Origin: Trypanosoma brucei
Lineage: Eukaryota
Reading direction: 5' to 3'
Assembly (NCBI GenBank): GCA_000002445.1
Contig: CP000068.1
Coordinates: 544,001-608,000, forward strand
DNA length: 64,000 bases
Shown: one piece after another, positions 5,158 through 31,900 of the stretch
Position numbering within the stretch: position 1 is the first letter of the stretch
Layout: each line of letters begins with the position of its first letter
The notes under the pieces: model-generated
The model's input: the letters and a program-made list of their open reading frames with translations, nothing else
Database searches by the model: none
Told to the model about the DNA's origin: nothing
Program-made: the position numbers and the translations under genes

Positions 5158-5452
5158 TTCCGTCTGTTTTTCGTTGGTCGCTTCTCGTAAGCATTTTCTT
5201 TCTTTCCTTCCTGTCTTCTTTGATGAACCTATATGCACGTGTCAGAAGTGTTGGAACGTGTTAGTGGTGGTGTGCAGGGATTCAACCGGGGGTGCGCTGA
5301 AACGCGTGGAGCGGATAGGAGATCTTTGGTAATTCACCATATTTTGCCTCTTGTATTCTGTTGGCATTCTTGGGCGGCGGTATAATCGCGCTGAGTCTGT
5401 GCGTACTAACCCATCCTCGTTCTGTTTTTCTCCGGTCTTCGGCGTTCGAGCA

Positions 5453-7789: not shown

Positions 7790-7853
7790 TCTCACTCCTG
7801 AGTTTTTTTTTCCCGCCCCTCTTCCTTCCTTCCTTCCTTCCTTTTTTTTTTCA
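7790..7853 (+). promoter_or_regulatory. Polypyrimidine tract including (TTCC)n, between the esterase and pseudouridine-synthase genes.
   Basis: ctcactcctgagtttttttttcccgcccctcttccttccttccttccttcctttttttttt. Confidence 0.5.
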
Positions 7854-8514: not shown

Positions 8515-8550
8515 TTGTTTTTGTTTTTGTTTTTGTTTTTGTTTTTTTTC
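8515..8550. repeat. (GTTTTT)n U-rich repeat. Similar runs recur at 19676-19700, 23756-23776 and 59896-59925.
   Basis: gtttttgtttttgtttttgtttttgtttttttt. Confidence 0.85.
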
Positions 8551-8899
8551 TTTTTACACGCTTACTTTTGAAGCGATTCAGCCACCTCCTCCCTTTCCTT
8601 TTCCCTCTGTGTTCCCGCAGTTGTCTCTCCCGGGAGAGAAATCACTTGGTCGTCACCGTTTAAATAACCTTCGTGTGTGACGTTTGTTGAGGTTCGTTGC
8701 CGCTTTATGTGGTTTTAGTCGGTTCGGAAGAAGGGAAGTGGTACAGTGAGTGTGGTGTGGGTTATCTGTACCTCTGTTGCTATCGTTGTTGGTTCCTTAT
8801 ACTTTACCATACGCCTCGCATGCGTTTTGAGTCGTCCACGCCCGAACGTATTTCAGGGAGGAAAGTAATTAGTGTGCGTGAGGTCCTCGGTGCCGTTGC

Positions 8900-11002: not shown

Positions 11003-11359
11003 GAGGGAAAGAAAAGTGGGAAGATACGAAGTAACTTACTTTAATAAGAGAAAAGGTATATGAGAAATACTCTAATAAAAAGTAATTAAACATCATTCTA
11101 AAATGGCAAAATCACATAGAAAACTGTTAACCATTGATTCCACTAATGCTTTTCTAGCAGTTTTTGCTGATTGTTACACTTAAAAGTTCTTTTTAATTAA
11201 TTGTTAATCAATTTTTTTGTGTTAAATGTTGTCAGAGTTCTGATTTTCAGAAAAGCAAGTAAACAGATATTAGTCAGTTCGAAGCTTAGGAAGCGAAAAC
11301 AAGCGTTGTGTAAAGGCGGAAACGATAATAATATTTCTGTTTTCACTTTTCTGCGAGAC

Positions 11360-12763
11360 ATGTCATCGGTGGGAATCGAGTGGAGCGCCCTTTCACTCCC
11401 TGTTGAAGGGGAAGTGGTGTTCGCTTCCTTTGTCTCGCTTATATGTCCACTGGACGGACGACGTGAAGGTGATGATGTGAGTAAGAAATGTTCTGCAGCC
11501 TCCGTTCTGTGTAATGAATGTGCTAACGCGATTGTATGTGTTCTTAAGGACCGTGAAGTTGCTTTCTTTGACCTGGCGGACGAATCTGCTGGCCCCCGGG
11601 AGGTCCGGCGCATTGGGGCTACTCCCCCGCTTCTCGTTTCCCGTTTCATGCGCAACGCCGATCCGTCAGTTGCAACGTGTGCGACGCTGCTGCCGAAGGA
11701 CGTTTCATTCATGTGCCGTGTACCGCCTGCAGCAGTGGAGAGGGTTTCCTCTTCAGATCCATCTGCTGGTCCTCACGATGGAGGTGCGGGTGCGGCGCAT
11801 TCAGTGAGAGGGACGGTGTACCTGTGTGGTGCTGTTGGTACCAGTGATGGACGCGTGGATGTGTTCTCTGAGGAGGGCTACGTGTTTGGGTTTGTCGCCA
11901 GCGATGGCCCTGTGGTTGCTGTGAGCGTCATCTACAGTACGAGCTTTTCCTCTGGCGGGTGTGCGGGTGTCAAGAGCTGGGAACAAATTCAACCTTCTGG
12001 TGTGTCGCTACCTGCGGAGGGTAGTGACGAGGAGCGTACTCTGGATCGTGCAACGGCAAACCTGGGTTTCGTGACGACTAATGCAGACGGTGTTGTGTCT
12101 GTTTGGCGCCAGGACGGTTGTGGGTTGAAGCCTGCTGTGTTTGGCAGCAGCGCGCTTTTCTCTCGGGTGTTTTGCTCGCGTGTAGTGCAGCCAAGCAGTC
12201 GTGACTGGCTGCTGAGTGGTACGGAAGTAACAAGGACACCATTCATTGTACACACATCGCCAGGTCTCACGGCTGACTTGTGTGCACGGAGCGCAGTGAC
12301 GTTTGAGGATGTGGAGAGCCGAGTGCGCCTCCCCGGGAATATGTTGACACGCACAACCGCGATTGCGTCGGATGGGGACTCGGCACTAGTGGCGAGGGGG
12401 CGATCAGTGTTCCACGTTACATTCTCTGGCTCTTCCTGCGACCTTGTTTGCACGGCCGACTGCAACGTGGACGGCCTGCACTTGCCTGGCAGTGGTCCCC
12501 AGAAAGAGGGCGGAGCGGCCCTAGCAGCTGCATGCGATGTGAAGGGGACGGTATATGTTCTGTGTGGGCAGCCGCTCTCTGTGCTTGGTCGCTACAGTGC
12601 TACGGGCGGTGGTCCTATTCGTTCCTTGTCTATCTGTGCGGTGTCGCGGCTTGTTACGATTGTTGGCGGCGATGGCACGGTGGATGTTGTACTGGTGCCT
12701 ACGGATGCCGATTCTGTTCCAACCGCGACCGTACACCAAGCCCTCGCATCGCTTCCTCGTTAG
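11360..12763 (+). CDS. Hypothetical protein with degenerate beta-propeller-like (WD-like) segments (DGVVSVW, DGTVDVV).
   Basis: Long GC-rich + strand ORF. The track start at 11201 is a TTG inside an AT-rich intergenic stretch, and the first ATG is at 11360. No confident domain assignment. Confidence 0.45.
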   Translation: MSSVGIEWSALSLPVEGEVVFASFVSLICPLDGRREGDDVSKKCSAASVLCNECANAIVCVLKDREVAFFDLADESAGPREVRRIGATPPLLVSRFMRNADPSVATCATLLPKDVSFMCRVPPAAVERVSSSDPSAGPHDGGAGAAHSVRGTVYLCGAVGTSDGRVDVFSEEGYVFGFVASDGPVVAVSVIYSTSFSSGGCAGVKSWEQIQPSGVSLPAEGSDEERTLDRATANLGFVTTNADGVVSVWRQDGCGLKPAVFGSSALFSRVFCSRVVQPSSRDWLLSGTEVTRTPFIVHTSPGLTADLCARSAVTFEDVESRVRLPGNMLTRTTAIASDGDSALVARGRSVFHVTFSGSSCDLVCTADCNVDGLHLPGSGPQKEGGAALAAACDVKGTVYVLCGQPLSVLGRYSATGGGPIRSLSICAVSRLVTIVGGDGTVDVVLVPTDADSVPTATVHQALASLPR

Positions 12764-15853: not shown

Positions 15854-16297
15854 AGACTTTCTTTCACTTACATCATCACAGTGCGGGGGTTTGTATTCAC
15901 TCTGTGTAGATATCGGGCGAAACAGTGGGGACACATTGTAAATTGTGGTACCGTCTCTTCACAATGTTTTCTTATCTTCATCAGCTGGTAATTGCCACTT
16001 TTTGCATGAGGTGTGAGGTAGTGGCTCGTGAAATCTGTAGGTGCACTTCATCTGAGGTGTGTATGAGAAGTCATGTGACTGAATAAGATATCACTGTGTG
16101 GAACATATCGTTGTTTATTATGTTGCTTGCATGTACTGCTGTGTTGTGATGTTCATAATTAATTAATACCTTGCTTTCTCTGCCTGTGCACCTCTTTAAC
16201 TTTTCCTCTCCCCCGTTTCCTCCCGCATGGTATAGTGATACCTAACTCCTCTCGGTACCAGAGGCTGCACTCACGTCAGCACACGGGTTGTGGTGCA

Positions 16298-16669
16298 ATG
16301 GTGAACCTGCATGAGCTGGGAGGGCAGCAAGGCTGCGGGGGACCTCAATTTACTCCTGTGGGAGTGTCGTTGACACCGCTGTTGCAGTATTTCTCGCTGC
16401 TCGTTCATGTAGTTGGAAAGCTACCCGGATTTGCTGCCGGGTTCGTGACCGTGTGGCTAGTTTACATTATGTTTATAGGGCGTGATGTGCTTTTGAACAC
16501 GTGCGTTCCTGTTGCTGGGTTCCACATTACTGCACTGTTACTGCTGCGTGAACTATTGACACCATGGCAGGAAGGAATAGCTGGGGCTGCTGAGGTACGT
16601 CGGCGTGTGGCAGCACAGAGGTCGTTTGTGCGGGATGTGCAGTTACAATGGGGAGCAAAACTCGATTGA
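16298..16669 (+). CDS. Possible small hydrophobic protein (123 aa); speculative.
   Basis: GC-rich ORF between the PPR-like gene and the first p67 copy, preceded by a polypyrimidine tract at 16200-16230. The track start is a GTG, and the first ATG is at 16298. No similarity recognised. Confidence 0.25.
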   Translation: MVNLHELGGQQGCGGPQFTPVGVSLTPLLQYFSLLVHVVGKLPGFAAGFVTVWLVYIMFIGRDVLLNTCVPVAGFHITALLLLRELLTPWQEGIAGAAEVRRRVAAQRSFVRDVQLQWGAKLD

Positions 16670-16899
16670 CAGTCATGGAGGTGGACATTACATGTGTTAG
16701 TGGTGTGGCTTTCTTTTAGGTGATGCCCTGCACCCTTTCCATTGCACAGTGTGCAAAAGAGTGATATTTTTCAGGTACTGCTGTTGTTATTGTTGTTCCG
16801 CTATGGATTGAGTGCTTGTGAGCAGCGGCACCTGGCTACGCAGGATTGTGAGAGCAGTGTGCTTACCCTTATAGTCACTGTTTGTATATAATTATGCAC

Positions 16900-19740
16900 T
16901 CGTGTGTGTATGTGTGTGTGCTATTGATGTGCTTGCTTCCAACAACACTCGTTCTGTCTACCTTTGTTTACTCTTGTTAGACTCTCGAAGCGATTACCGT
17001 GCAATATTTCGTTGATAACAAGGTGGAATGATGTGTACCGCAACCGTTATGAGGACTCCCTCTGCGGTTTTGTGCCTGCTGCTTGCGGCAACCCTGACTC
17101 TCAGCACTCCCGTTGCCGTTCGCGGGGAAGTGCTTAAGGATGCGACCCCTACAGTTGTGACAGTCTGGTATAACGCCACGAGCGGCGGTTTCTATGCTAC
17201 GGATGGTCTTGCATCTGGTAAGTATGCTGCAATCGTGAATGTGAGTAACACTTTCAACAAGACCGGTTGGGACGTTGTGACTGCTGTGGCAAACGATGGT
17301 TTCATGCATTTGCCTGGAGAAGCGGAACCGTCAGCAGAGCGCGTGCTACTGGCATACAAGGCTGTAGGTTTTGGTGAAGGCTACGCCACGTATGAGAGCA
17401 TGAAGGCTTCCATAAACAATACGTTTGAGGGTCCTGAGGGTCTCTCTGCGCTTTTGTCTGATGCGCCGCAGGCACAACACTGGATTGAAGAGCACGTTCG
17501 GTATATGGACGCTGCGAAGTTCGAGAGCAGTGCATTCTACACCCAGCTGCGAAACATGTTAGCTCTCATTGATGGTATGGTTGCTGGTTACAACGCTCGT
17601 GCCCCTGCTGACGAACGGTTGGATCGGATGAAGCTGTTAATGTACAACATGCAAGCAGAGATTGGTGACATTGTGAGGGCCACATCCCCTGCGGAGGTAT
17701 TGGATGATATGCGTCAGATGATGCCGCGGTGGTTTGTTGACACCCACTGTTCTGCCTTTGTAAAGGTCGTAAAGGATGACATCTACTTTGGTCACGCCAC
17801 GTGGAGCAGCTTCAATACTATGTTGAGGCAGTACAAAACGTATGCCTTCGGCGGGCGCTTCGTTACCATGTCATCTTACCCAGGTTTGGCGCACAGTGTG
17901 GATGATTGGTACATGACACACAAGCGCCTCGCAGTCATGGAGACCACCAACGTCATACACAATGCAACGCTGCTGCGCAACCATGTCGGTTCCTCTAGCG
18001 TGGCTACGTTTCTGCGTGCGATGATCGCGAACTTCATTGCGGTGGACGCCCCCTCATGGGTGTCGAACTTCAGCAGGGAAAGCAGTGGGGCGTACAACAA
18101 TCAGTGGATGGTGCTCAACATGGGTGCAGTGGAGTCCGAGGCGATGTTTAAAAACATGGCACCCAACACCTTTTGGGTGTTAGAGCAGCTCCCTGGTACT
18201 GCTCCTCCGTTGGGTATAACATCTAAGGATATGACCAGCGTGCTGAACACCACTGGGTACTGGGCGAGTTATAACAGACCGTACTTCCCCAATGTGTACA
18301 ATCTTTCAGGTACGCTGAAGATGCAGGAGGAATACGGTGACTTCTATTCTTACAAGAATTACTCACGCGCCCGGATATTTGAACGTGATCAGGGTTCTGT
18401 GGTCGATATTGAAAGCATGAAGAGGCTGATGCGTTACAACAACTACACGAAAGACCCATTTTCTCTTATTCCCAACTGCACTGGTGCTGTTGGTATGGAT
18501 GACGATGGTAATGTGACTAATGTCTGCAAGCCTCCATACAGTGCGATGCTTTCAATCGCAGCACGTGGTGATTTGAACCCTCCTGGTAATGCGACCGAGT
18601 ACGGCCCACTTGTCCGAAGTGTAGGACACGTAAATAGTGGAGCTATCGATGCAAAGATAGCGACGTGGACGGGGATGGTGAAGAATCCTGAAAGTTATAC
18701 TGCTCATGTTGTCTGTGGCCCGACGACCGATAATCAACCACCGTTTCAGTGGGTGGACGGCATGTTCGATCCCATGCCCCCAACATATGGGTTGCTGAAA
18801 TTGTATAACTTTAGCTTCGTAGTCATGGAGACGCCGATCCGACCTTCCGGTGGTAGTAATAGTTGGAGGAGCACTGGCATCATTGCTGTTGTGGCGGCGC
18901 TGGTTGTGGGTGTGATTGCCGTCGTCCTCATGCGTCCGAGGCGGCGTACCGAAGAGGATGAACTTCTTCCCGAAGAGGCTGAAGGTCTTATAGATCCTCA
19001 GAACTAGAAGCTATGATAATGACGCACTTACCTCTCCTCTCTTCCCGAGGTGTAGATATTGCTGAACTGATGTGATGTGCGGTGGGGAGCTGAGAGGTGC
19101 ACCAGATGCAATGTACCAATGCTTTAAATGAACATTGTGTCTCCTCTGCTATGTAGGTAGTAGTTTTTATACTTGAGGGAGTAGCGTGTCTGTGTGTGGT
19201 TGCTCTGTGCTTGAAAGGGAGTGTGATGAGCGCTCCGGTTCCCGCAGAATCGGTTACAACTAAGGTAACTCTCTCCCTGATTTTGCTTGCTTCCTACGGG
19301 GATTCATATGAGGCCCGTAATGACGGAAAAAGAAGGTGCGAGAAAGAATGGTAAGTGTAAAAAATGGGAATGGTAATAAGCGATGGATGTAGGAAGTGAG
19401 GTGTATAGGAATAGAAGAGATGAATGTGCCCGCGCGTGAATATGTTGTGGTGGTACCAGCGATGTGGCATGTAGTGTTGGGGCGCAGTGTAGAGAAAGGA
19501 AGAGATCAGTTGCCGCATAGTTGATGCAGCACTCCTCCCCATATCTTCTACATCCTCCTCTAGTCGTACGTTAACGCGTGGTGATTCCCTCGCATGCCAT
19601 TGCCGCTGTTGCCAGTGCTGTGTTCCGTCCGTTCTGTGCGTCCCGTGAGTAATACACGGCGTAGTGTTGCATTGTTTTTGTTTTTGTTTTTGCTTACCTT
19701 CCTTTTGTTCCAACGCACATTCCAATGCGTGTGTTTTTTT
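16900..19740 (+). repeat. Segmental duplication unit A: the p67 gene plus about 130 bp of 5' flank and about 730 bp of 3' flank.
   Basis: Near-identical to 20980..23816, with a period of 4,070 bp. Identity begins at gtgtatgtgtgtgtgctattgatg and ends at ccaatgcgtgtgtttttt. Confidence 0.9.
17028..19007 (+). CDS. p67: Lysosomal/endosomal type-I membrane glycoprotein p67 (a phospholipase-B-like lumenal domain); canonical copy, 659 aa.
   Basis: An N-terminal signal peptide (MMCTATVMRTPSAVLCLLLAATLTLS), many NxS/T sequons, and a PLB-like core containing the NNQWMVLN motif. A single C-terminal TM helix (IIAVVAALVVGVIAVVLM) is followed by a 24-residue tail, RPRRRTEEDELLPEEAEGLIDPQN, which carries two dileucine-type motifs. 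The 659-aa length and tail match what I recall of T. brucei p67. Confidence 0.85.
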   Translation: MMCTATVMRTPSAVLCLLLAATLTLSTPVAVRGEVLKDATPTVVTVWYNATSGGFYATDGLASGKYAAIVNVSNTFNKTGWDVVTAVANDGFMHLPGEAEPSAERVLLAYKAVGFGEGYATYESMKASINNTFEGPEGLSALLSDAPQAQHWIEEHVRYMDAAKFESSAFYTQLRNMLALIDGMVAGYNARAPADERLDRMKLLMYNMQAEIGDIVRATSPAEVLDDMRQMMPRWFVDTHCSAFVKVVKDDIYFGHATWSSFNTMLRQYKTYAFGGRFVTMSSYPGLAHSVDDWYMTHKRLAVMETTNVIHNATLLRNHVGSSSVATFLRAMIANFIAVDAPSWVSNFSRESSGAYNNQWMVLNMGAVESEAMFKNMAPNTFWVLEQLPGTAPPLGITSKDMTSVLNTTGYWASYNRPYFPNVYNLSGTLKMQEEYGDFYSYKNYSRARIFERDQGSVVDIESMKRLMRYNNYTKDPFSLIPNCTGAVGMDDDGNVTNVCKPPYSAMLSIAARGDLNPPGNATEYGPLVRSVGHVNSGAIDAKIATWTGMVKNPESYTAHVVCGPTTDNQPPFQWVDGMFDPMPPTYGLLKLYNFSFVVMETPIRPSGGSNSWRSTGIIAVVAALVVGVIAVVLMRPRRRTEEDELLPEEAEGLIDPQN

Positions 19741-19965
19741 CGTGTAGCGAAGTGAATTCTCTCCCCCTCGAGTGGTGTGGGAGGACGACTGAGTGCCTTT
19801 CTTTGTGTGCTCAGAAGCCCATGTACCCCATTGTATTGGCTGTGCCGCTACTTTTGTACGGGTTGCATGCATGAGCAAATATATATCCCCTTTTCTTCGC
19901 CTCTAATTTGCATGGAAGTGGAACGAGCACATTTCACTCACACAAGGATTTGATTAAAGGAAGAA

Positions 19966-20289
19966 ATGTCGCAGCAGCTTGCATGCACATACGCCTCCTT
20001 GATACTCTCTGGCAGCGGGAATGTTGACGCCGCGAAGCTGCTTGCCGTAACAAATGCTGCTGGCGTTACTGTCAGTAAAGGTATGGCAGAAGCTTTTGCC
20101 TCAATTCTTGGTGGTATTTCCATTGATGAGGTTCTTGGCAATATTGCGTTCGGTGGTGGTGCGCCTGTTGCGTCTAGTGGAGGCGCCGCTGCTGCTGCTC
20201 CTGCCGCCGGTGGCGCACCTGCTGCCGCTGCTCCTGCAAAGGAGGAAGAGGAAGATGATGATGATATGGGCTTCGGTCTTTTTGACTAA
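19966..20289 (+). CDS. RPLP2: 60S acidic ribosomal protein P2.
   Basis: 107 aa with an Ala/Gly-rich hinge and the diagnostic acidic C-terminus EEEEDDDDMGFGLFD of ribosomal P proteins. ATG at 19966. Confidence 0.9.
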   Translation: MSQQLACTYASLILSGSGNVDAAKLLAVTNAAGVTVSKGMAEAFASILGGISIDEVLGNIAFGGGAPVASSGGAAAAAPAAGGAPAAAAPAKEEEEDDDDMGFGLFD

Positions 20290-20979
20290 GCGCGCTCCTA
20301 GCAGTGTGATTGTTGCTCGCACAGAAAGAGAGTTTGTTTCATTCCTTTTTTTAATTTTTATTTGTTCTTTGTTTTCAAGTAACTGGTACACGCTGTGGCC
20401 ACCCTGTTGACAGTTTAAAAAAAAACCTATTGTGTTTTAGTGTATGTTTTGTTTTGCAAACACGAAACGCTGCTTTCTAAAAAAAAAAATCACTTTTAGC
20501 ACCTTTTAAACGACACCTCCTATCACTCTCCAGTAAGGCAAAAAGATAGAAGATATATAATGGCGATCATACACCTGGTGGCTTTCTTTTCAAAGACTTT
20601 GCGTATCAGTTAATTACGTTTACGACATGACGTCTTTGCGAGTGCAACCTACTTGTTGGGTAAGTGTGCACTTGGCTGTTTTTGCTTATCGGTTCTTGTA
20701 TTGTGTTTAAAGGGCAGTGCCTCTGATGTCAGAATGTGTGGTGTGTGTTGCTGTGATCCGTCATCATACGCTACAGTTTTGTATGGTCGATGGCCGTATT
20801 TATGTACAGTAAAGAAAATGTGAGCGATGTCTGCAATATTATTTACTGGATACTCTGCCCAAGTGCTGTTTGTGGACGTGATTCTATGATGTTTGTAAAC
20901 TGTTAATTGTCGCTGTCACTAACCGTACATAATGCTCTACTGTGTGGACACGCTTGTTTACTCTAGTGTGTATGCGTGT

Positions 20980-23816
20980 ATGTGTGTGTGCTATTGATGT
21001 GCTTGCTTCCAACAACACTCGTTCTGTCTACCTTTGTTTACTCTTGTTAGACTCTCGAAGCGATTACCGTGCAATATTTCGTTGATAACAAGGTGGAATG
21101 ATGTGTACCGCAACCGTTATGAGGACTCCCTCTGCGGTTTTGTGCCTGCTGCTTGCGGCAACCCTGACTCTCAGCACTCCCGTTGCCGTTCGCGGGGAAG
21201 TGCTTAAGGATGCGACCCCTGCAGTTGTGACAGTCTGGTATAACGCCACGAGCGGCGGTTTCTATGCTACGGATGGTCTTGCATCTGGTAAGTATGCTGC
21301 AATCGTGAATGTGAGTAACACTTTCAACAAGACCGGTTGGGACGTTGTGACTGCTGTGGCAAACGATGGTTTCATGCATTTGCCTGGAGAAGCGGAACCG
21401 TCAGCAGAGCGCGTGCTACTGGCATACAAGGCTGTAGGTTTTGGTGAAGGCTACGCCACGTATGAGAGCATGAAGGCTTCCATAAACAATACGTTTGAGG
21501 GTCCTGAGGGTCTCTCTGCGCTTTTGTCTGATGCGCCGCAGGCACAACACTGGATTGAAGAGCACGTTCGGTATATGGACGCTGCGAAGTTCGAGAGCAG
21601 TGCATTCTACACCCAGCTGCGAAACATGTTAGCTCTCATTGATGGTATGGTTGCTGGTTACAACGCTCGTGCCCCTGCTGACGAACGGTTGGATCGGATG
21701 AAGCTGTTAATGTACAACATGCAAGCAGAGATTGGTGACATTGTGAGGGCCACATCCCCTGCGGAGGTATTGGATGATATGCGTCAGATGATGCCGCGGT
21801 GGTTTGTTGACACCCACTGTTCTGCCTTTGTAAAGGTCGTAAAGGATGACATCTACTTTGGTCACGCCACGTGGAGCAGCTTCAATACTATGTTGAGGCA
21901 GTACAAAACGTATGCCTTCGGCGGGCGCTTCGTTACCATGTCATCTTACCCAGGTTTGGCGCACAGTGTGGATGATTGGTACATGACACACAAGCGCCTC
22001 GCAGTCATGGAGACCACCAACGTCATACACAATGCAACGCTGCTGCGCAACCATGTCGGTTCCTCTAGCGTGGCTACGTTTCTGCGTGCGATGATCGCGA
22101 ACTTCATTGCGGTGGACGCCCCCTCATGGGTGTCGAACTTCAGCAGGGAAAGCAGTGGGGCGTACAACAATCAGTGGATGGTGCTCAACATGGGTGCAGT
22201 GGAGTCCGAGGCGATGTTTAAAAACATGGCACCCAACACCTTTTGGGTGTTAGAGCAGCTCCCTGGTACTGCTCCTCCGTTGGGTATAACATCTAAGGAT
22301 ATGACCAGCGTGCTGAACACCACTGGGTACTGGGCGAGTTATAACAGACCGTACTTCCCCAATGTGTACAATCTTTCAGGTACGCTGAAGATGCAGGAGG
22401 AATACGGTGACTTCTATTCTTACAAGAATTACTCACGCGCCCGGATATTTGAACGTGATCAGGGTTCTGTGGTCGATATTGAAAGCATGAAGAGGCTGAT
22501 GCGTTACAACAACTACACGAAAGACCCATTTTCTCTTATTCCCAACTGCACTGGTGCTGTTGGTATGGATGACGATGGTAATGTGACTAATGTCTGCAAG
22601 CCTCCATACAGTGCGATGCTTTCAATCGCAGCACGTGGTGATTTGAACCCTCCTGGTAATGCGACCGAGTACGGCCCACTTGTCCGAAGTGTAGGACACG
22701 TAAATAGTGGAGCTATCGATGCAAAGATAGCGACGTGGACGGGGATGGTGAAGAATCCTGAAAGTTATACTGCTCATGTTGTCTGTGGCCCGACGACCGA
22801 TAATCAACCACCGTTTCAGTGGGTGGACGGCATGTTCGATCCCATGCCCCCAACATATGGGTTGCTGAAATTGTATAACTTTAGCTTCGTAGCCATGGAG
22901 ACGCCGTTTTTTAAAAGCGATGTTGTCGACGTAGTTTGGTGGATTATTTCGGGAATTGGAATAGGAGCTACTATTTTATTACTATCTATTGTTCTTTATT
23001 ATAATACCGAGTGTAGTGTCGGTGTTGATGAGGATGAACTTCTTCCCGAAGAGGCTGAAGGTCTTATAGATCCTCAGAACTAGAAGCTATGATAATGACG
23101 CACTTACCTCTCCTCTCTTCCCGAGGTCTAGATATTGCTGAACTGATGTGATGTGCGGTGGGGAGCTGAGAGGTGCACCAGATGCAATGTACCAATGCTT
23201 TAAATGAACATTGTGTCTCCTCTGCTATGTAGGTAGTAGTTTTTATACTTGAGGGAGTAGCGTGTCTGTGTGTGGTTGCTCTGTGCTTGAAAGGGAGTGT
23301 GATGAGCGCTCCGGTTCCCGCAGAATCGGTTACAACTAAGGTAACTCTCTCCCTGATTTTGCTTGCTTCCTACGGGGATTCATATGAGGCCCGTAATGAC
23401 GGAAAAAGAAGGTGCGAGAAAGAATGGTAAGTGTAAAAAATGGGAATGGTAATAAGCGATGGATGTAGGAAGTGAGGTGTATAGGAATAGAAGAGATGAA
23501 TGTGCCCGCGCGTGAATATGTTGTGGTGGTACCAGCGATGTGGCATGTAGTGTTGGGGCGCAGTGTAGAGAAAGGAAGAGATCAGTTGCCGCATAGTTGA
23601 TGCAGCACTCCTCCCCATATCTTTTACATCCTCCTCTAGTCGTACGTTAACGCGTGGTGATTCCCTCGCATGCCATTGCCGCTGTTGCCAGTGCTGTGTT
23701 CCGTCCGTTCTGTGCGTCCCGTGAGTAATACACGGCGTAGTGTTGCATTGTTTTTGTTTTTGTTTTTGCTTACCTTCCTTTTGTTCCAACGCACATTCCA
23801 ATGCGTGTGTTTTTTA
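20980..23816 (+). repeat. Segmental duplication unit B: the second p67 gene plus flanks.
   Basis: Same boundaries as unit A, with only a few SNPs in the flanks (for example gaggtgtagat versus gaggtctagat), apart from the replaced TM-encoding patch at 22907-23029. Confidence 0.9.
21098..23083 (+). CDS. p67: p67 paralogue (661 aa). It is identical to copy 1 except for T41A, a V-to-A change, and a replaced transmembrane segment (FFKSDVVDVVWWIISGIGIGATILLLSIVLYYNTECSVGVD).
   Basis: The nucleotide sequence is near-identical to 17028..18836. The two copies diverge over about 120 bp (22907-23029) and reconverge on the shared tail, DEDELLPEEAEGLIDPQN. Confidence 0.85.
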   Translation: MMCTATVMRTPSAVLCLLLAATLTLSTPVAVRGEVLKDATPAVVTVWYNATSGGFYATDGLASGKYAAIVNVSNTFNKTGWDVVTAVANDGFMHLPGEAEPSAERVLLAYKAVGFGEGYATYESMKASINNTFEGPEGLSALLSDAPQAQHWIEEHVRYMDAAKFESSAFYTQLRNMLALIDGMVAGYNARAPADERLDRMKLLMYNMQAEIGDIVRATSPAEVLDDMRQMMPRWFVDTHCSAFVKVVKDDIYFGHATWSSFNTMLRQYKTYAFGGRFVTMSSYPGLAHSVDDWYMTHKRLAVMETTNVIHNATLLRNHVGSSSVATFLRAMIANFIAVDAPSWVSNFSRESSGAYNNQWMVLNMGAVESEAMFKNMAPNTFWVLEQLPGTAPPLGITSKDMTSVLNTTGYWASYNRPYFPNVYNLSGTLKMQEEYGDFYSYKNYSRARIFERDQGSVVDIESMKRLMRYNNYTKDPFSLIPNCTGAVGMDDDGNVTNVCKPPYSAMLSIAARGDLNPPGNATEYGPLVRSVGHVNSGAIDAKIATWTGMVKNPESYTAHVVCGPTTDNQPPFQWVDGMFDPMPPTYGLLKLYNFSFVAMETPFFKSDVVDVVWWIISGIGIGATILLLSIVLYYNTECSVGVDEDELLPEEAEGLIDPQN

Positions 23817-24540
23817 GCGTACTGTAGTTGATTCATTTGTGGCGGTCGTTTTGCGTTGGTGTCATTTGTTCGTGTAATTTGTTGTTGTTGTTGAAGCAGC
23901 CTGCAGTTGCCAATTTTTTGTCTTTGATTTTTTTAAAAAATTTTTCGTTTGTTATGGTTTTGTTGTTCTATATCTTTTTTAAAATTTCTTTCCTTTCCTT
24001 TTATATTTCTTCGTTAAGTGGCTTTCATTGTGGTGGTGCTAATGCTTTTTTCCCTTGACGGGCTGCTTGTGTATGGTAACGGGGAAGGTGATGAAAGTGA
24101 ATCCTTACACAGCAACCTTAATGTTTCGGAGGGACGCCAATTAGTTTCATTGTATCGTTTGATGCATCGCCTTCATTGTACGGAGGAACGTGATACGGAG
24201 GAAGAAGGTACTCATCCCGTAGTATTTGCCAAATTTTTGGGAGCACAATGGAATGGGCCGTCGTCGGTGCATGATGATGTTGTGCCAACTGCCGGCGTCA
24301 TTGTTAATAATAACATCAATAGGGCTGCAAATGGCATGGAAGACATGTTTATACGCGAAGGGGCAGATGGTGGCTTCAGTAATGGCGCGTTAACTGTCAG
24401 CACGTCTACGCGAACTCTCGGATGCGTTCAGGTACCGTTGGATGATGCAAATGCCGTTTTGTTCTCGTGCACGGCATCCGATACAATGAGGCGGGAGGTA
24501 TGATTAGCTAAAGAGGACTCGATGCAAACCAAGACTTCCA

Positions 24541-24800
24541 ATGGATAATACTTTTCCGTTCTTTCTTTCTGTCCATTCAATTTTGTCATTATCTTTTCTT
24601 GTGCCTTTCCCTTTTGTGTCAGTCTGTTTTCGTGTTGGTTTGCGTGCGTTTTCTCTTCTTCTTTCGTTTCGCCTCTATCTTGTTACGTATATATTTGTAT
24701 ATGTTTCTTGTCCTGTTGTTTAGTTTATTCTAATTCCATTTTATTGTATTCCTTTGCTTCTCTTCTCTTTCCTTTTTCTTATTGTTTCTTTCAGTGGTGG
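24541..24800 (+). promoter_or_regulatory. A pyrimidine-rich region about 260 bp long in the 2.1 kb intergenic region between p67 copy 2 and the giant repeat gene.
   Basis: Almost uninterrupted C/T content (ttttccgttctttctttctgtccattcaattttgtcattatcttttcttgtgcctttccc...). Confidence 0.45.
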
Positions 24801-25156
24801 ACAAGTTAAAAAAAAAAAAGAATAGAATAACAAGAAGAAAACAAAGTGAAACAAAAAAAAGGAAAAGGTAAAAGCGGCCGCCCGGCTCTTCCACCGTAGA
24901 GCCCCGTTTTTTTTAATAAAAAGGTTGTCGCTTTCTCTTTGGTTTCTTTTTGCCACTGTTGCTGGGGAAATATTGAACTGTTTTCCCTCTTCTTTTTTTT
25001 TTTCGTATTCCCTCCGTGAGGTTGTAATTCTGTCAACATTTAATATTTTCCGGCTCTTGAGAGAACGCCACCAGTCATATAAATATTTACAATTTTGTTC
25101 AAAAGTAAATCTCTTTTTTTTTTTGCGGTGTGATTTGTAACAAACAACAACAACAA

Positions 25157-25184: not shown

Positions 25185-25920
25185 GTTACTAAAATAGTAG
25201 AGAATTGTGTGTGTGGAACCTCCTGCCCAACTTTAGCCGCATTTTTCTTTTTTACTTTCTCAGTCATTTGTTTTCCCGACTCCGTTTGGTCTTTTTTGTT
25301 TCTTTGTTTTGTTATTATTATCATTATTACCTTAGGTGCCGAAGAGGGACGTACAAGCGCCCCTCTTTTCCCCCCATCAACCCCCCCAAAAAAAAGTGAA
25401 TATTTAAGTTACCAGTACCAACATCAAAAGTGTCATAAAACAGTGAAAGTTTGATTTCAACTAGGCGTGCGTTGCAAGTGGGCAAAGAAAATAAATAAAT
25501 AAATAATAATAGCGAGGAAATATATCGCAGTCCGTGAGGAAAAAAAAACGGTAGAAAAAAACGAAAGAGGTTGGGAGGAACTTAACTGACGCAAAGGAGA
25601 AAAAGGAAAAAGAAAAGAGCAGCGTTCTCCTTAGCCAACACCCTCGTTTACTTATTGGCTCATTTTCTTTTTTTTAAAGAGCTCGTTTTTGTATTTTCAT
25701 TGCTTGAACTACGTTATTATTATTGCAGGCAGTGGAAGAGGAAGGGCGGACGAAAAAAAAAACAAGAAAACAGGACTGAAGCATTTTGGGGATATTTTCT
25801 TTCTTTTTGTTACTCCTTCTGCACAAGTACGCAACGAAAAACTACGGGGGAAAAAACTGTTTTGTCCATAAATATCAATATAAAAATATATCTGTTGAAA
25901 ACACGTGCATCAGCGTCGTG

Positions 25921-28900
25921 ATGCAACAACAGCAACAACAGAAACACTTGGTAGGCTCCGGCGCTACGAACAACACAATGGGTAGAGTTGATTTCTTACA
26001 ATTACCCGCTTCATGTAATGCTGAAGGCAGCAGCAGGTGGCGTTGGCGGTTTCAAACACAGCAACAGCGGCATCAACACGGTGACAGTGACAGCGGTGAA
26101 GGTGAAGATGGAGGAGTTTTTTATAACGTTCAGAGAGTTGAGGATGATGGGAAGGAGACTGACATCATGTATGTTGCTAAAACTATAGGAAACGAAGTGC
26201 TTCACCATGAAGTAACCCCACGTTACCCAAACAGTCGCAGCTCCATAAATGACGAGTTATCATCTGCGACCGGAAGCAGCAGCAGCAATGATATATGTGA
26301 GGAGCCCCTCCCTCTTTACTTTATCCGTAATGCGGGGAAGCGCAGGATCGGCCCCGTGTGCGAGTCCGTCACGGAGAAAGAACGAACCCACTTTTCCACC
26401 GAGAGTGTCAGAAAAGCCGATATTACCCCGCCTACTGAACCTTTACAGGTGGAAATAATATCAAAACGAACCTCATACATCGGCTTACATGTATTTCAGG
26501 AACAGAATGAGATTGTGGCGCACGTAGAAGAAGAGAAACACAGCAGCGACGATTCCGATTACCGAGAACAACGTGAAGGCGACACCCCAATGGTCCCAAG
26601 CTTTGTGTACTACAGTGCGCCGCGCCGCGGGCAACACACTTCTGAAAGCGAGGAATATGCCACAGAGTTTGATGAGAGTTGCGCACCAGCAACAAACAAT
26701 GAACACCACCACGCGTCACCACTAAAACCAACACTAATAAAAAAACGATGTTATATACCTGTACCCTCACCACCCGAAGGCCATACAAAGGTCAGCATGA
26801 GTTACCATACATCCATACAATCAGCAACACCACCTTCGGAAATAACATCGCCATTGCAAGTTAGCTTTATACGCAGCAAGTTATGCGGTAACTACAGGTC
26901 AGAAGCTGAGGCACAGCTTCCGATGAGTATTGAAGCGATAAAAGGTGCTTTCCAGAGGTCAGATAAGTCAGCAAAAGCAACGCTGCCCCCGTCTATGAGA
27001 CGGCAAGCAAGGGAGTGCAAGCCACAGCGTCAGCAGCAACCTGAATGCTTTCGTGAGCGAAGAGAAGTAAGTTCTTCTTCATCTGAAGACGAATACAACG
27101 GAGTGATGATACCCGCAAAAGAAGGCAGGAGGAATGCACACACATTTAAAAAGGTTAACACTGTCAGAGAACAAGAACACAAAAACGGGGGTCTAAAAGA
27201 AGAGCAACAGATGAGGGAGAGCGATATTCAAAAGAATAGAGCACAACAAGTTGTTTTTGGTTTTATGCCAAAGCAAAATCACAAACACACAGAGGTGCAC
27301 GAAGCATGTGATGAGCAAATGCCAGTGAGTGTGTGTGGTATTCTCGAACAACCACTTTCTATGGCTCATGTGTTTGACAGCTTAATGAAAGATGCGGAGG
27401 TGCACGAAGCATGTGATGAGCAAATGCCAGTGAATGTGTGTGATATTCTCGAACAACCACTTTCTATGGCTCATGTGTTTGACAGCTTAATGAAAGATGC
27501 GGAGGTGCACGAAGCATGTGATGAGCAAATGCCAGTGAATGTGTGTGATATTCTCGAACAACCACTTTCCATGGCTCATGTGTTTGACAGCTTAATGAAA
27601 GATGCGGAGGTGCACGAAGCATGTGATGAGCAAATGCCAGTGAATGTGTGTGATATTCTCGAACAACCACTTTCTATGGCTCATGTGTTTGACAGCTTAA
27701 TGAAAGATGCGGAGGTGCACGAAGCATGTGATGAGCAAATGCCAGTGAGTGTGTGTGATATTCTCGAACAACCACTTTCCATGGCTCATGTGTTTGACAG
27801 CTTAATGAAAGATGCGGAGGTGCACGAAGCATGTGATGAGCAAATGCCAGTGAGTGTGTGTGGTATTCTCGAACAACCACTTTCCATGGCTCATGTGTTT
27901 GACAGCTTAATGAAAGATGCGGAGGTGCACGAAGCATGTGATGAGCAAATGCCAGTGAATGTGTGTGATATTCTCGAACAACCACTTTCTATGGCTCATG
28001 TGTTTGACAGCTTAATGAAAGATGCGGAGGTGCACGAAGCATGTGATGAGCAAATGCCAGTGAATGTGTGTGATATTCTCGAACAACCACTTTCCATGGC
28101 TCATGTGTTTGACAGCTTAATGAAAGATGCGGAGGTGCACGAAGCATGTGATGAGCAAATGCCAGTGAATGTGTGTGATATTCTCGAACAACCACTTTCT
28201 ATGGCTCATGTGTTTGACAGCTTAATGAAAGATGCGGAGGTGCACGAAGCATGTGATGAGCAAATGCCAGTGAGTGTGTGTGATATTCTCGAACAACCAC
28301 TTTCCATGGCTCATGTGTTTGACAGCTTAATGAAAGATGCGGAGGTGCACGAAGCATGTGATGAGCAAATGCCAGTGAATGTGTGTGATATTCTCGAACA
28401 ACCACTTTCTATGGCTCATGTGTTTGACAGCTTAATGAAAGATGCGGAGGTGCACGAAGCATGTGATGAGCAAATGCCAGTGAATGTGTGTGATATTCTC
28501 GAACAACCACTTTCCATGGCTCATGTGTTTGACAGCTTAATGAAAGATGCGGAGGTGCACGAAGCATGTGATGAGCAAATGCCAGTGAGTGTGTGTGATA
28601 TTCTCGAACAACCACTTTCCATGGCTCATGTGTTTGACAGCTTAATGAAAGATGCGGAGGTGCACGAAGCATGTGATGAGCAAATGCCAGTGAGTGTGTG
28701 TGGTATTCTCGAACAACCACTTTCCATGGCTCATGTGTTTGACAGCTTAATGAAAGATGCGGAGGTGCACGAAGCATGTGATGAGCAAATGCCAGTGAGT
28801 GTGTGTGGTATTCTCGAACAACCACTTTCCATGGCTCATGTGTTTGACAGCTTAATGAAAGATGCGGAGGTGCACGAAGCATGTGATGAGCAAATGCCAG

Positions 28901-31900
28901 TGAATGTGTGTGGTATTCTCGAACAACCACTTTCTATGGCTCATGTGTTTGACAGCTTAATGAAAGATGCGGAGGTGCACGAAGCATGTGATGAGCAAAT
29001 GCCAGTGAATGTGTGTGATATTCTCGAACAACCACTTTCCATGGCTCATGTGTTTGACAGCTTAATGAAAGATGCGGAGGTGCACGAAGCATGTGATGAG
29101 CAAATGCCAGTGAGTGTGTGTGGTATTCTCGAACAACCACTTTCCATGGCTGATGTGTTTGACAGCTTAATGAAAGATGCGGAGGTGCACGAAGCATGTG
29201 ATGAGCAAATGCCAGTGAATGTGTGTGGTATTCTCGAACAACCACTTTCCATGGCTCATGTGTTTGACAGCTTAATGAAAGATGCGGAGGTGCACGAAGC
29301 ATGTGATGAGCAAATGCCAGTGAATGTGTGTGATATTCTCGAACAACCACTTTCCATGGCTCATGTGTTTGACAGCTTAATGAAAGATGCGGAGGTGCAC
29401 GAAGCATGTGATGAGCAAATGCCAGTGAGTGTGTGTGGTATTCTCGAACAACCACTTTCTATGGCTCATGTGTTTGACAGCTTAATGAAAGATGCGGAGG
29501 TGCACGAAGCATGTGATGAGCAAATGCCAGTGAGTGTGTGTGGTATTCTCGAACAACCACTTTCCATGGCTCATGTGTTTGACAGCTTAATGAAAGATGC
29601 GGAGGTGCACGAAGCATGTGATGAGCAAATGCCAGTGAATGTGTGTGATATTCTCGAACAACCACTTTCCATGGCTCATGTGTTTGACAGCTTAATGAAA
29701 GATGCGGAGGTGCACGAAGCATGTGATGAGCAAATGCCAGTGAGTGTGTGTGGTATTCTCGAACAACCACTTTCTATGGCTCATGTGTTTGACAGCTTAA
29801 TGAAAGATGCGGAGGTGCACGAAGCATGTGATGAGCAAATGCCAGTGAATGTGTGTGATATTCTCGAACAACCACTTTCTATGGCTCATGTGTTTGACAG
29901 CTTAATGAAAGATGCGGAGGTGCACGAAGCATGTGATGAGCAAATGCCAGTGAATGTGTGTGATATTCTCGAACAACCACTTTCCATGGCTGATGTGTTT
30001 GACAGCTTAATGAAAGATGCGGAGGTGCACGAAGCATGTGATGAGCAAATGCCAGTGAGTGTGTGTGGTATTCTCGAACAACCACTTTCCATGGCTCATG
30101 TGTTTGACAGCTTAATGAAAGATGCGGAGGTGCACGAAGCATGTGATGAGCAAATGCCAGTGAGTGTGTGTGGTATTCTCGAACAACCACTTTCCATGGC
30201 TCATGTGTTTGACAGCTTAATGAAAGATGCGGAGGTGCACGAAGCATGTGATGAGCAAATGCCAGTGAATGTGTGTGATATTCTCGAACAACCACTTTCC
30301 ATGGCTGATGTGTTTGACAGCTTAATGAAAGATGCGGAGGTGCACGAAGCATGTGATGAGCAAATGCCAGTGAGTGTGTGTGGTATTCTCGAACAACCAC
30401 TTTCTATGGCTCATGTGTTTGACAGCTTAATGAAAGATGCGGAGGTGCACGAAGCATGTGATGAAAAAACAATCTTACTTGTTGTGCGTGAGACAAATGT
30501 GGTTGTACATCAACTGTGCGCTGAGAGAGAGCTGTCTCCGCTATTGAGGTTTGGTCGGTATTTGAAGTCGGTTATTGGTACCGTTTGCAGTGTTGTAGGT
30601 GGGGTAGTCGGGTTAGGGACTTTATCTCCCCATCTTTTTAAGGGCTTCGTCGTGGAGGGGAAGAAGACTTCGTGTTTAATACCGAGGGTTTCTGGATATC
30701 CCTTCAAGAAGTGCTCTTACTTACCAAAGGGGTCATTGATGGTTGTTATGTTGATGGATGCTGAAGGGCGGCAGGTCCTCACAAAACATTTCGTATTGAA
30801 TAGTGGTAGCCTTGGTCTTTTCAAGGAATTAACTGTAATGGCAGATGAGGATGCGGCCTCGCGGCAGGACAGGGTGTTGAACGTAAGCCGAAGGTTGCGA
30901 AATGCCGTAAAACTCATTGGTGGTATCGAGGGTTGTGTGAGTGTGGCAGATTCACCTCAGAACCCGGGGAGGTTGAGGCTCCAAGTGATGCCGAGGCACG
31001 TTCGCACCTCCAAGCTGATTTCGTTGTGGGAAGTGAGCGTGATTCCTAGTATAATAATCACCGAAATTGCAAGTAAGCCGGACCTTTTTTTGTTTAGTTT
31101 GAGTGGTGGGATTGCACACTATTCCATGAAAGTCCCCCGTGCCGCATGTAGAGGCGACACGCGTAACATGTCGTGGATTTATGAAAAAGGAGAGATTCAA
31201 ACTGACGCATTGGATAAGCTGTCGGTGCGACGATGCCGACACAGACCCAACTGTGGAGATGGGTTGTCCACCCATTGTTTGACTGTAGAGGCGGTGCAAA
31301 ACCTTATGCACGGTGAAATGGTGGAAGTCGGCCTCGAGCATCTTTCCGGTTCCAAGGGGGAAACGTCGAGGCAAGAGTGCGGTAACTCTTTGACAAATGG
31401 AAGAGGGAGGTCAACCTCATCAGTTGCAATATCTGCAGTACCAGACGTGAGAGAGTCCGCTATCGACGACCAGGTTATGAGGGTGGTGCCGTGGTCGCCA
31501 AGCGCATTCGTGCGTGACCCGATAGTATCGCGGGATCGACGGGTTCTTGGCCACAGCGATGCTCCGCGGCTGTCGCCGTCGTTAGGCTCACTGTCCTTAG
31601 CGACAGGTGAAAGTGACCAGCATCCAGCGCACTGCGCATTGGTACGACTGGGGCCGTTGTCGTCGGCAAAACAGGAAACCAGGACCAACGAAAACCGGGT
31701 GGGGGCACTGCAGGTCGCCGGGGACGACACAAGCTTGAATGGGTTGTATGAACGAAAGAGATTGGGTCTACTGGACTTCGTGCGAGCTGGCAGACCTGAC
31801 GCCCCAAAAACCAAGGTCCTTTCCGACAGAACGCAGAGCGGAAGTGACTCTCCACAAGGAATGGGCGTTCGGCTGCCGCGTACGGCTGTTGCCAGACAAT

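What the first reader, a model, noticed from the sequence alone, without database searches (positions are those of the whole stretch)
22907..23029. p67 copy 2 carries a replaced, AT-rich transmembrane-domain patch and keeps the dileucine tail
The two p67 genes are essentially identical at the nucleotide level for about 1.8 kb of CDS and about 0.7 kb of 3' flank. The exception is a stretch of about 120 bp that encodes the membrane-proximal stalk, the TM helix and the first tail residues.

Copy 1 (18837-18953) is GC-rich and encodes IRPSGGSNSWRSTGIIAVVAALVVGVIAVVLMRPRRRTEE. Copy 2 is strikingly AT-rich (ttttttaaaagcgatgttgtcgacgtagtttggtggattatttcgggaattggaataggagctactattttattactatctattgttctttattataataccgag...) and encodes FFKSDVVDVVWWIISGIGIGATILLLSIVLYYNTECSVGVD. 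Both copies then rejoin on DELLPEEAEGLIDPQN, which is the tail motif established as the lysosomal targeting signal.

The sharp boundaries, the composition shift and the preserved reading frame look like a gene-conversion or patch-insertion mosaic rather than gradual divergence. The result is two lysosomal glycoproteins that differ only in their membrane anchor. Copy 2 also loses the basic RPRRR juxtamembrane stop-transfer sequence.
Basis: partly seen in the sequence, partly recalled or inferred. Interest (0 to 1): 0.65.

Follow-up and report, generated by a model that had tools for sequence, protein, structure and literature searches.

The report
Ancient alternative membrane anchor of p67
The two tandem genes for the trypanosome lysosomal glycoprotein p67 are kept almost identical by ongoing gene conversion except for a ~120-bp segment encoding the membrane anchor, and T. 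congolense has the same two anchor versions, so the "patch" is an old, conserved alternative anchor and not a recent insertion.

Summary
The window is T. brucei TREU927 chromosome 5. Copy 1 is Tb927.5.1810 and copy 2 is Tb927.5.1830. The two 2.84-kb repeat units are 99.6-99.85% identical, except for one unalignable in-frame island. The island in copy 1 (type A) is 18837-18953 with GC 0.60. The island in copy 2 (type B) is 22907-23029 with GC 0.33.

It is not an assembly artefact: the B island occurs in four independent T. brucei-group assemblies.

The "patch insertion" reading is wrong in timing and direction. T. congolense has the same A/B pair, with the same boundaries and the same GC contrast. 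A matches A and B matches B across species (z = 19 and 16). A against B within a species looks random. The flanks group by species, and within T. brucei even by strain. So the island is the old part, and gene conversion keeps homogenising the flanks. T. vivax and T. cruzi have a single p67 gene at this locus.

Both helix cores show fewer amino-acid-changing than silent differences between species.

Koeller et al. (2020) already state in one sentence that the two T. brucei paralogues differ only in the TM domain. I found no paper describing the conservation across species.

Whether the two anchors differ in function is inferred, not shown.

The parts
16903..19739 (+). Repeat unit 1. It runs from 125 bp 5' of the ATG to 732 bp 3' of the stop of p67 copy 1.
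   Evidence: BLASTN of the two units. The unit ends were read.
17028..19007 (+). p67 copy 1 (Tb927.5.1810, A-type anchor), 659 aa. The Phospholipase B-like domain covers residues 68-600.
   Evidence: ORF. Exact match to AAZ11296. Pfam PF04916 at 523 bits. Cys241-Ser242 and 14 sequons.
18837..18953 (+). Island A: stalk IRPSGGSNSWRS, a 20-residue Ala/Val/Gly helix TGIIAVVAALVVGVIAVVLM (18873-18932), the basic cluster RPRRR (18933-18947), then TE.
   Evidence: Orthologous to the T. congolense A island.
18954..19007 (+). Shared cytoplasmic tail EDELLPEEAEGLIDPQN plus stop codon, copy 1. It holds two [DE]xxxL[LI] motifs.
   Evidence: The motif function is taken from the literature.
19966..20289 (+). 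60S acidic ribosomal protein gene (107 aa) in the 1233-bp unique spacer between the two repeat units.
   Evidence: ORF. Pfam PF00428 at 76.5 bits. The spacer is unique in the window.
20973..23815 (+). Repeat unit 2.
21098..23083 (+). p67 copy 2 (Tb927.5.1830, B-type anchor), 661 aa.
   Evidence: ORF. Exact match to AAZ11298. Pfam.
22907..23029 (+). Island B, the reported feature. It encodes the stalk FFKSDVVD and a 24-residue Ile/Leu helix VVWWIISGIGIGATILLLSIVLYY (22931-23002) with Trp-Trp and Tyr-Tyr ends. This is followed by NTECSVGVD, which has a conserved juxtamembrane Cys (23012-23014) and no basic cluster.
   Evidence: Identical peptide in TREU927, DAL972 and two T. equiperdum assemblies. 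Orthologous to the T. congolense B island.
23030..23083 (+). Shared cytoplasmic tail plus stop codon, copy 2. It is identical to the tail of copy 1.

Best explanation
Island B is one of two ancient, orthologously conserved membrane-anchor modules of p67. Shown: a single ancestral p67 gene, the state still seen in T. vivax and T. cruzi, is duplicated in T. brucei and T. congolense. Each species has one copy with an A anchor and one with a B anchor. Everything else in the repeat unit is continually homogenised within each species, and even within each T. brucei strain. That includes the 5' UTR, the whole lumenal phospholipase-B-like domain, the dileucine tail and about 0.7 kb of 3' flank. Inferred: the duplication and the A/B divergence predate the T. 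brucei/T. congolense split. Homogenisation works by gene conversion or unequal crossing-over. Conversion tracts that would carry one island over the other are removed by selection, because each anchor is needed. The outcome resembles alternative terminal exons in an organism that makes almost no use of cis-splicing: one lumenal enzyme and one AP-1 sorting tail are placed on two different anchors. The A anchor is a short, small-residue helix of 20 aa held by an Arg cluster. The B anchor is a longer, bulkier helix of 24 aa held by aromatic belts, with a juxtamembrane Cys that could be S-acylated. The dileucine motif sits 12 residues from the B helix and 10 from the A helix. I think the most likely consequence is a difference in membrane partitioning, trafficking route or turnover. 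This step is inference only.
For: The same dimorphism occurs in T. congolense IL3000: P0002, P0131 and P0135 are type A, and P0132 and P0133 are type B. At the DNA level the T. congolense A and B copies are 97.7% and 99.1% identical on either side of a 123/126-bp island. Those islands have GC 0.58 and 0.37 and the same boundaries as in T. brucei. Shuffle tests give TbA-TcoA z = 19.3 and TbB-TcoB z = 16.2, while A against B within a species gives z = -0.2 to 1.5. Third-codon-position identity between species is 0.45 in the flanks and 0.44-0.45 in orthologous islands. For paralogues it is 1.00 (T. brucei) and 0.98 (T. congolense) in the flanks but only 0.27-0.32 in the islands. Among 927, T. b. 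equiperdum and RNA-seq contigs, flank SNPs group by strain and not by copy. Between species, the B helix core has pN 0.21 and pS 0.58, and the A helix core has pN 0.11 and pS 0.51. Helix lengths are conserved within each type, at 20 and 24 residues. There is one p67 gene at the syntenic locus in T. vivax and T. cruzi. The B island is nucleotide-identical in T. b. equiperdum and T. b. gambiense.
Against: I have no expression or localisation data specific to the B isoform. The three RNA-seq-derived Logan contigs that carry full-length p67 all have the A island. The T. b. gambiense B copy has a 1-bp deletion next to an assembly gap. pS between species is close to saturation and the islands are only about 40 codons long, so the pN/pS values are rough. 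Heterology by itself reduces conversion, so some persistence without selection is possible. The T. congolense assembly is fragmented, so the order and number of its copies are not established. Only two species carrying the duplication could be examined.
Confidence: 0.85

Rival explanations
1. Neutral relic. The duplication and the A/B divergence are old, but B persists only because 120 bp of non-homology blocks or deflects conversion tracts. On this view the B copy is redundant, poorly expressed, or drifting towards a pseudogene.
For: Koeller et al. expect the same activity for both paralogues. Only A-type transcripts were recovered from the Logan RNA-seq contigs. The T. b. gambiense B copy has a frameshifting 1-bp deletion. 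The B island uses AT-ending codons, with GC3 of 0.23 in T. brucei and 0.36 in T. congolense.
Against: Both flanks have been homogenised repeatedly, since SNPs group by strain. The island sits between 1.9 kb and 0.8 kb of near-identity, so tracts spanning it should occur, yet B survives in two lineages. The B ORF is intact in TREU927, two T. equiperdum assemblies and T. congolense. pN is below pS in the B helix core, helix length is conserved at 24 residues, and the WW...Y.N..CS pattern is conserved.
Confidence: 0.15
2. Recent patch insertion or ectopic conversion. This is the first reader's reading: an AT-rich segment from another gene replaced the TM region of copy 2 in T. brucei.
For: Sharp boundaries, a composition shift and a preserved reading frame.
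Against: An orthologous B island is present in T. congolense, with synonymous divergence equal to that of the flanks between species. The B helix still resembles the stercorarian p67 TM, with W-I-x-x-GIGIG-A and z = 8.8 against T. rangeli. No donor was found in the window, and there were no hits among 1.84 billion representative proteins.
Confidence: 0.02
3. Assembly chimera or sequencing artefact in the reference genome.
For: Nothing beyond the general difficulty of assembling near-identical tandem repeats.
Against: The identical B peptide is found in TREU927, DAL972, T. equiperdum OVI and T. b. equiperdum. The exact 120-bp core is present in L007 and L008. T. congolense has a homologous island on two contigs.
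Confidence: 0.01

Closest known systems
p67 / phospholipase B-like (PLBD, PF04916) lysosomal type I glycoprotein of T. brucei (Tb927.5.1810/1830)
   Same: Both ORFs are exactly these genes. Both have the full PF04916 domain, the Cys241-Ser242 cleavage dipeptide and 14 sequons, and the dileucine tail. Koeller et al. [quoted passage not shown]
   Different: As far as I could find, the papers in the held library treat p67 as a single protein; the cloned T. b. rhodesiense sequence O76517 is A-type. I found no description of the B anchor's conservation in T. congolense, of the concerted evolution of the flanks, or of any B-specific property.
T. brucei tandem arrays evolving in concert while retaining isoform-specific segments: the PGK A/B/C array and the THT1/THT2 hexose transporters (Jackson 2007, PMC1855330)
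   Same: Tandem paralogues are homogenised by gene conversion or unequal crossing-over, while a segment that distinguishes the isoforms keeps its orthology across species. In PGK that segment determines the compartment.
   Different: Here the retained segment is a very small internal island of 114-126 bp, flanked on both sides by converted sequence. It is not a terminal extension or a copy isolated by rearranged UTRs. p67 is not named in that survey or in its held supplements.
Mammalian LAMP-2A/B/C isoforms (my own knowledge, not tested here)
   Same: A lysosomal type I glycoprotein is made in versions that share the lumenal domain and differ only in the TM helix and the cytosolic juxtamembrane or tail region.
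   Different: The LAMP-2 isoforms arise by alternative splicing of the last exon and also differ in the tail. p67 uses two genes kept alike by conversion, and its tail signal is shared. p67 is not homologous to the LAMPs (Koeller et al. note only a topological analogy).

Membership tests
Phospholipase B-like / PLBD (Pfam PF04916, NTN-hydrolase fold) | Full-length match to the family profile above the curated threshold | tested here: met
   Both copies score 523 bits against a cut-off of 27. The match covers residues 68-600 and profile positions 1-487 of 487.
Phospholipase B-like / PLBD (Pfam PF04916, NTN-hydrolase fold) | Conserved Cys/Ser dipeptide at the alpha/beta autocleavage junction | tested here: met
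   THCSAFVK with Cys241-Ser242. The position is as described by Koeller et al..
Phospholipase B-like / PLBD (Pfam PF04916, NTN-hydrolase fold) | Hydrolase activity and autoproteolytic maturation | not testable with these tools
   This needs biochemistry.
p67 lysosomal type I membrane glycoprotein | N-terminal signal sequence, one C-terminal TM helix and a short cytoplasmic tail | tested here: met
   Read from the sequence: a hydrophobic N-terminus, then one hydrophobic stretch of 20 residues (A) or 24 residues (B) followed by a 24-26-residue tail. No dedicated topology predictor was available.
p67 lysosomal type I membrane glycoprotein | Two acidic dileucine motifs [DE]xxxL[LI] in the tail, which are the lysosomal targeting signal in procyclic forms | tested here: met
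   Copy 1 has EEDELL and EAEGLI. Copy 2 has DEDELL and EAEGLI. Their function is taken from the literature. In T. congolense the first motif reads DDAL-P in both isoforms.
p67 lysosomal type I membrane glycoprotein | Lysosomal localisation of the B isoform | not testable with these tools
   No isoform-specific data were found.
Concerted evolution of tandem paralogues with an island that retains orthology | Paralogues are more alike within a species than orthologues are between species, outside the island | tested here: met
   Flank nucleotide identity is 1.00 (T. brucei) and 0.98 (T. congolense) within species, against 0.71 between species.
Concerted evolution of tandem paralogues with an island that retains orthology | The island groups by type across species | tested here: met
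   A-A gives z = 19 and B-B gives z = 16, against about 0 for A-B. Island nucleotide identity is 0.57-0.64 for orthologues and 0.34-0.43 for paralogues.
Concerted evolution of tandem paralogues with an island that retains orthology | Recent homogenisation, shown by strain-specific variants shared between paralogues | tested here: met
   In 927 against T. b. equiperdum, most variable flank sites are shared by the A and B copies of the same strain.
Concerted evolution of tandem paralogues with an island that retains orthology | Selection, rather than heterology alone, maintains the island | tested here: inconclusive
   pN is below pS in both helix cores and the island persists in two lineages. 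However, the segments are short, pS is near saturation, and there are no population data.

The most novel reading that the evidence does not exclude
The B-anchored p67 is a functionally distinct isoform kept by selection in both T. brucei and T. congolense. On this reading its longer, aromatic-belted and possibly S-acylated helix sends the same lumenal hydrolase and dileucine tail along a different route, or into a different membrane domain, or gives it a different lifetime or life-cycle stage. Examples would be the flagellar pocket or endosomes, a distinct lysosomal subdomain, or tsetse stages. That would make p67 a natural A/B swap experiment for TM-domain-based sorting in trypanosomes. It could also bear on why the requirement for the cytoplasmic tail differs between bloodstream and procyclic forms.
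Probability: 0.3. Interest if true: 0.55.

Novelty: new member of a known kind. Interest (0 to 1): 0.4.

Why it matters
p67 is the standard lysosomal marker in African trypanosomes. It is an essential protein and a determinant of sensitivity to human serum and to suramin. As far as I could find, none of the papers I could search treats the B isoform separately, and RNAi hits both genes. The two anchors have been kept apart since before T. brucei and T. congolense diverged, while everything around them is overwritten. That argues the anchor difference is not noise. It also provides a clean, naturally matched pair for testing how TM length, TM composition, basic clusters and juxtamembrane cysteines affect sorting in a divergent eukaryote. 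For genome annotation, it is a compact example of how gene conversion can hide the age of a duplication: the genes look a few thousand years old, while the island shows they are older than the species.

Tried and rejected
1. Two further searches of the 5.8-billion-protein index were meant to find B-type C-termini in other Salivaria. The queries were the 124-aa C-terminus, once as a T. brucei plus T. congolense alignment and once as a single sequence. They returned almost no candidates and no hits. The word index seems unsuited to short queries, so these results say nothing about other species.

2. phmmer of island B plus the tail (58 aa) against 1.84 billion cluster representatives gave no hit at E <= 0.001. 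This argues weakly against a foreign donor, since power is low for a short TM peptide.

3. tblastn and blastn of both islands against all six frames of the window found only themselves. The best other E-value was 0.17.

4. An Rfam scan of 16000-25000 found nothing in or near the island and nothing close to any gathering score.

5. An exact-protein look-up of copy 2 in the contig collection found no record. The absence of B from the Logan assemblies is therefore uninformative.

6. I tried to reconstruct the gene order in T. congolense. Contig L002 joins p67-A and the ribosomal protein gene to a second copy of the 3' end of the pseudouridine synthase gene. The draft assembly cannot settle the array structure, so I did not build on it.

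7. I tried to decide which anchor is ancestral. Both resemble the outgroup TMs. A keeps the IAxVLxRxRRR end, as in T. cruzi and T. vivax. B keeps the W-I-x-x-GIGIG start, as in T. rangeli. This is unresolved, although A looks less derived overall.

8. Peck et al. 2008 could not be retrieved.
Full report
**1. What is in the sequence**

The window holds two intact ORFs, at 17028-19007 (659 aa) and 21098-23083 (661 aa). They match GenBank AAZ11296 and AAZ11298 exactly, which are Tb927.5.1810 and Tb927.5.1830 of T. brucei brucei TREU927. Both carry a full Phospholipase B-like domain over residues 68-600 (PF04916, 523 bits). Both also have the Cys241-Ser242 cleavage dipeptide and 14 N-glycosylation sequons.

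BLASTN defines two repeat units, 16903-19739 and 20973-23815.
- The upstream 1934 bp differ at 3 positions.
- The downstream 789 bp differ at 3 positions.
- Between these blocks, 114 bp in copy 1 (18837-18950) and 120 bp in copy 2 (22907-23026) do not align at all.

The first downstream mismatch (18953 A / 23029 T) is linked to anchor type in every copy I looked at.

The units are separated by a unique 1233-bp spacer that holds a 60S acidic ribosomal protein gene at 19966-20289.

The composition contrast is real.
- Island A has GC 0.60 and GC3 0.58, which is like the rest of the CDS.
- Island B has GC 0.33 and GC3 0.225, giving P = 6e-6 against the CDS background.

**2. Not an artefact**

The B peptide is identical in four assemblies: TREU927, T. 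b. gambiense DAL972 (CBH11508), T. equiperdum OVI (SCU71848) and T. b. equiperdum (RHW72330). The exact 120-bp core is present in the T. b. equiperdum and T. b. gambiense chromosomes. T. b. equiperdum has three copies in the order A, A, ribosomal protein gene, B. In all three T. brucei-group arrays examined (TREU927, T. b. equiperdum, T. b. gambiense), the B copy lies directly after the ribosomal protein gene, as the last p67 copy annotated at the locus.

**3. The decisive comparison**

T. congolense IL3000 has the same two kinds of p67.
- Type A ends ...SLWSRTGIIAIVAALVVGAIAVVLMRPRKDSEEDDALPEE...
- Type B ends ...VVEFDVVWWLISGIGIVCTVVLLIIVLYLNIDCSSKKEDDALPEE...

At the DNA level the T. congolense A and B copies are 97.7% identical over 708 bp upstream and 99.1% identical over 697 bp downstream of a 123/126-bp island. 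Those islands have GC 0.58 and 0.37. The boundaries fall within a few codons of the T. brucei boundaries, namely just after ...YNFSFVxM and just before the acidic tail.

Shuffle tests on the island peptides:

| Comparison | z-score |
|---|---|
| TbA vs TcoA | 19.3 |
| TbB vs TcoB | 16.2 |
| A vs B within a species | -0.2 to 1.5 |

Codon statistics show a clear incongruence between island and flanks:

| Comparison | Third-position identity |
|---|---|
| Between species, flanks | 0.45 |
| Between species, orthologous islands | 0.44-0.45 |
| Paralogues, flanks (T. brucei / T. congolense) | 1.00 / 0.98 |
| Paralogues, islands | 0.27-0.32 |

So the flanks group by species and the islands group by type. 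Within T. brucei, most variable flank sites are shared by the A and B copies of one strain and differ between TREU927 and T. b. equiperdum. Homogenisation is therefore still going on.

T. vivax and T. cruzi have one p67 gene at the syntenic locus. The neighbouring genes are conserved on both sides, and tblastn finds no second copy.

**4. What it is**

The island is the old part of the gene and the flanks are the young part. The most economical history has four steps:
- a single ancestral p67;
- duplication before the T. brucei/T. congolense split and after, or apart from, the T. vivax lineage;
- divergence of the anchor segment into types A and B;
- concerted evolution ever since of everything else in the 2.8-kb unit.

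Both islands retain significant similarity to the single TM of stercorarian p67 (z = 5-9). In the multiple alignment, the Trp at the lumenal interface is nearly invariant. This fits divergence in place rather than import. Type A keeps the ...IAxVLxRxRRR end seen in T. cruzi and T. vivax. Type B keeps the W-I-x-x-GIGIG start seen in T. rangeli and relatives. Type B has lost the basic cluster and gained a juxtamembrane Cys. No donor for B was found in the window or in 1.84 billion representative proteins.

**5. How it probably works**

Shown:
- The two proteins share the lumenal enzyme and the tail with both [DE]xxxL[LI] motifs. In the literature these motifs direct p67 from the Golgi to the lysosome in procyclic forms through AP-1.
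- The anchors differ in a way that is conserved across species.

| Feature | Type A | Type B |
|---|---|---|
| Helix length | 20 residues | 24 residues |
| Helix composition | Ala/Val/Gly-rich, no aromatic residues | Ile/Leu-rich, bulkier, WW at the lumenal end and Y(Y/L) at the cytosolic end |
| After the helix | RPR(R/K) | N-x-[ED]-C-S |

- Between species, amino-acid-changing differences are rarer than silent ones in both helix cores: B has pN 0.21 and pS 0.58, and A has pN 0.11 and pS 0.51.

Inferred:
- Conversion tracts that cross the island are removed by selection because both anchors are needed.
- The anchors affect membrane partitioning, route or stability.
- The Cys is a candidate S-acylation site.
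- The dileucine motif lies 12 residues from the B helix and 10 from the A helix.

None of the functional points is tested. I found no isoform-specific expression or localisation data. The only transcript-derived contigs retrieved carry the A island. One of them starts with the spliced-leader tail joined at window position 16980.

**6. Rivals**

A neutral-relic reading remains possible, and I give it about 0.15. In that reading heterology alone shields the island and B is redundant. Points in its favour are the missing B expression evidence, the AT-ending codons and a 1-bp deletion in the T. b. gambiense B copy. Points against it are the intact ORFs in four assemblies and two species, the conserved helix features, pN below pS, and survival in two lineages despite repeated homogenisation of both flanks.

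A recent patch insertion and an assembly chimera are both contradicted by the T. congolense and multi-assembly data.

**7. Relation to what is known**

[quoted passage not shown] The bare observation is therefore published. RNAi screens list both gene IDs together.

Jackson (2007, PMC1855330) described concerted evolution in T. brucei tandem arrays, including cases such as PGK and THT where isoform-specific parts survive. p67 is not mentioned in that paper or in its held supplements. I found no paper noting the A/B pair in T. congolense.

The finding is therefore a new, particularly compact member of a known kind of locus. It is not a new mechanism.

**8. Verdict**

It is a mosaic made by gene conversion, but the AT-rich segment is an ancient conserved module and not a replacement.

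Interest is moderate at 0.4. The basic fact is known and the evolutionary mechanism is ordinary. The conservation across species does turn an overlooked annotation detail into a well-posed and easily tested question about TM-domain-dependent sorting of an essential lysosomal protein.

One point is unexplained: why the B island has such low GC3 in both species. Lack of GC-biased conversion or selection on translation of the helix are untested ideas. For comparison, Jackson reports a GC3 of 0.416 for singleton genes, and the B island at 0.225 is still lower.

Noticed in passing
window 25786-33795 (+): A 2669-aa ORF contains roughly 35 near-identical tandem 38-aa repeats (DAEVHEACDEQMPV[NS]VC[DG]ILEQPLSMAHVFDSLMK).
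   Followed up: no
window 22907-23026; L001 11724-11849: The B island is depleted in G/C at third codon positions in both species. T. brucei has 0.23 against a background of 0.58, and T. congolense has 0.36 against 0.69 (P about 1e-5 each). The A islands match their flanks. The cause is unknown.
   Followed up: partly
L007 (T. b. equiperdum CM010676) 2300-12720: This assembly has three p67 copies in the order A, A, ribosomal protein gene, B. The first spacer lacks window 20025-20657, so the ribosomal protein gene there is truncated. The number of A-type copies therefore varies among T. brucei-group assemblies.
   Followed up: partly
L002 (T. congolense CAEQ01002085) 1527-3383: Downstream of p67-A lies the ribosomal protein gene (1791-2114). 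After that comes a 645-bp stretch that is 99.7% identical to L001 4514-5158, which is the 3' end of the pseudouridine synthase gene plus the start of the next gene. Either the duplicated block is larger in T. congolense or the draft is misjoined.
   Followed up: partly
L004 (T. vivax) 2881-3207: In T. vivax the 60S acidic ribosomal protein gene sits between the pseudouridine synthase gene and the next gene, about 7 kb upstream of the single p67. T. cruzi has no such gene in the locus. Its position between the p67 copies is therefore specific to T. brucei, and probably also to T. congolense.
   Followed up: partly
L008 (T. b. gambiense FN554968) 9889-11100: The B copy in DAL972 is annotated as a fragment. 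It has a 100-N gap just upstream and a 1-bp deletion at about window position 22361. This could be a sequencing error or a real frameshift.
   Followed up: partly
L011 1-30 / window 16980: An RNA-seq-derived contig (Logan ERR7929157) begins with the spliced-leader tail joined at window 16980. That gives a 48-nt 5' UTR that lies inside the repeat unit, so both copies should have the same 5' UTR.
   Followed up: partly
L009 3' end / window 19740-19760 and 23836-23899: A Logan contig with the A island continues from the copy-1-type end of the repeat directly into copy-2-type downstream sequence. This is either a strain difference or a graph-assembly chimera.
   Followed up: no
window 16235-16669 (+): A small ORF (144 aa, no Pfam match) just upstream of p67 is conserved in position and sequence in T. 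congolense, T. vivax and T. cruzi (tblastn E 1e-25 to 1e-30).
   Followed up: partly
T. congolense p67 tails (P0002, P0132): The first acidic dileucine motif of T. brucei (EDELL) reads EDDAL-P in both T. congolense isoforms. Only the second motif (ETEGLV) is conserved as a Leu-hydrophobic pair.
   Followed up: no
window 18823 / 22893: A Val/Ala difference five codons upstream of the island is present in the B copies of TREU927 and T. equiperdum OVI. It is absent from the B copies of T. b. equiperdum and T. b. gambiense. This is consistent with conversion tracts ending at slightly different points next to the island.
   Followed up: partly
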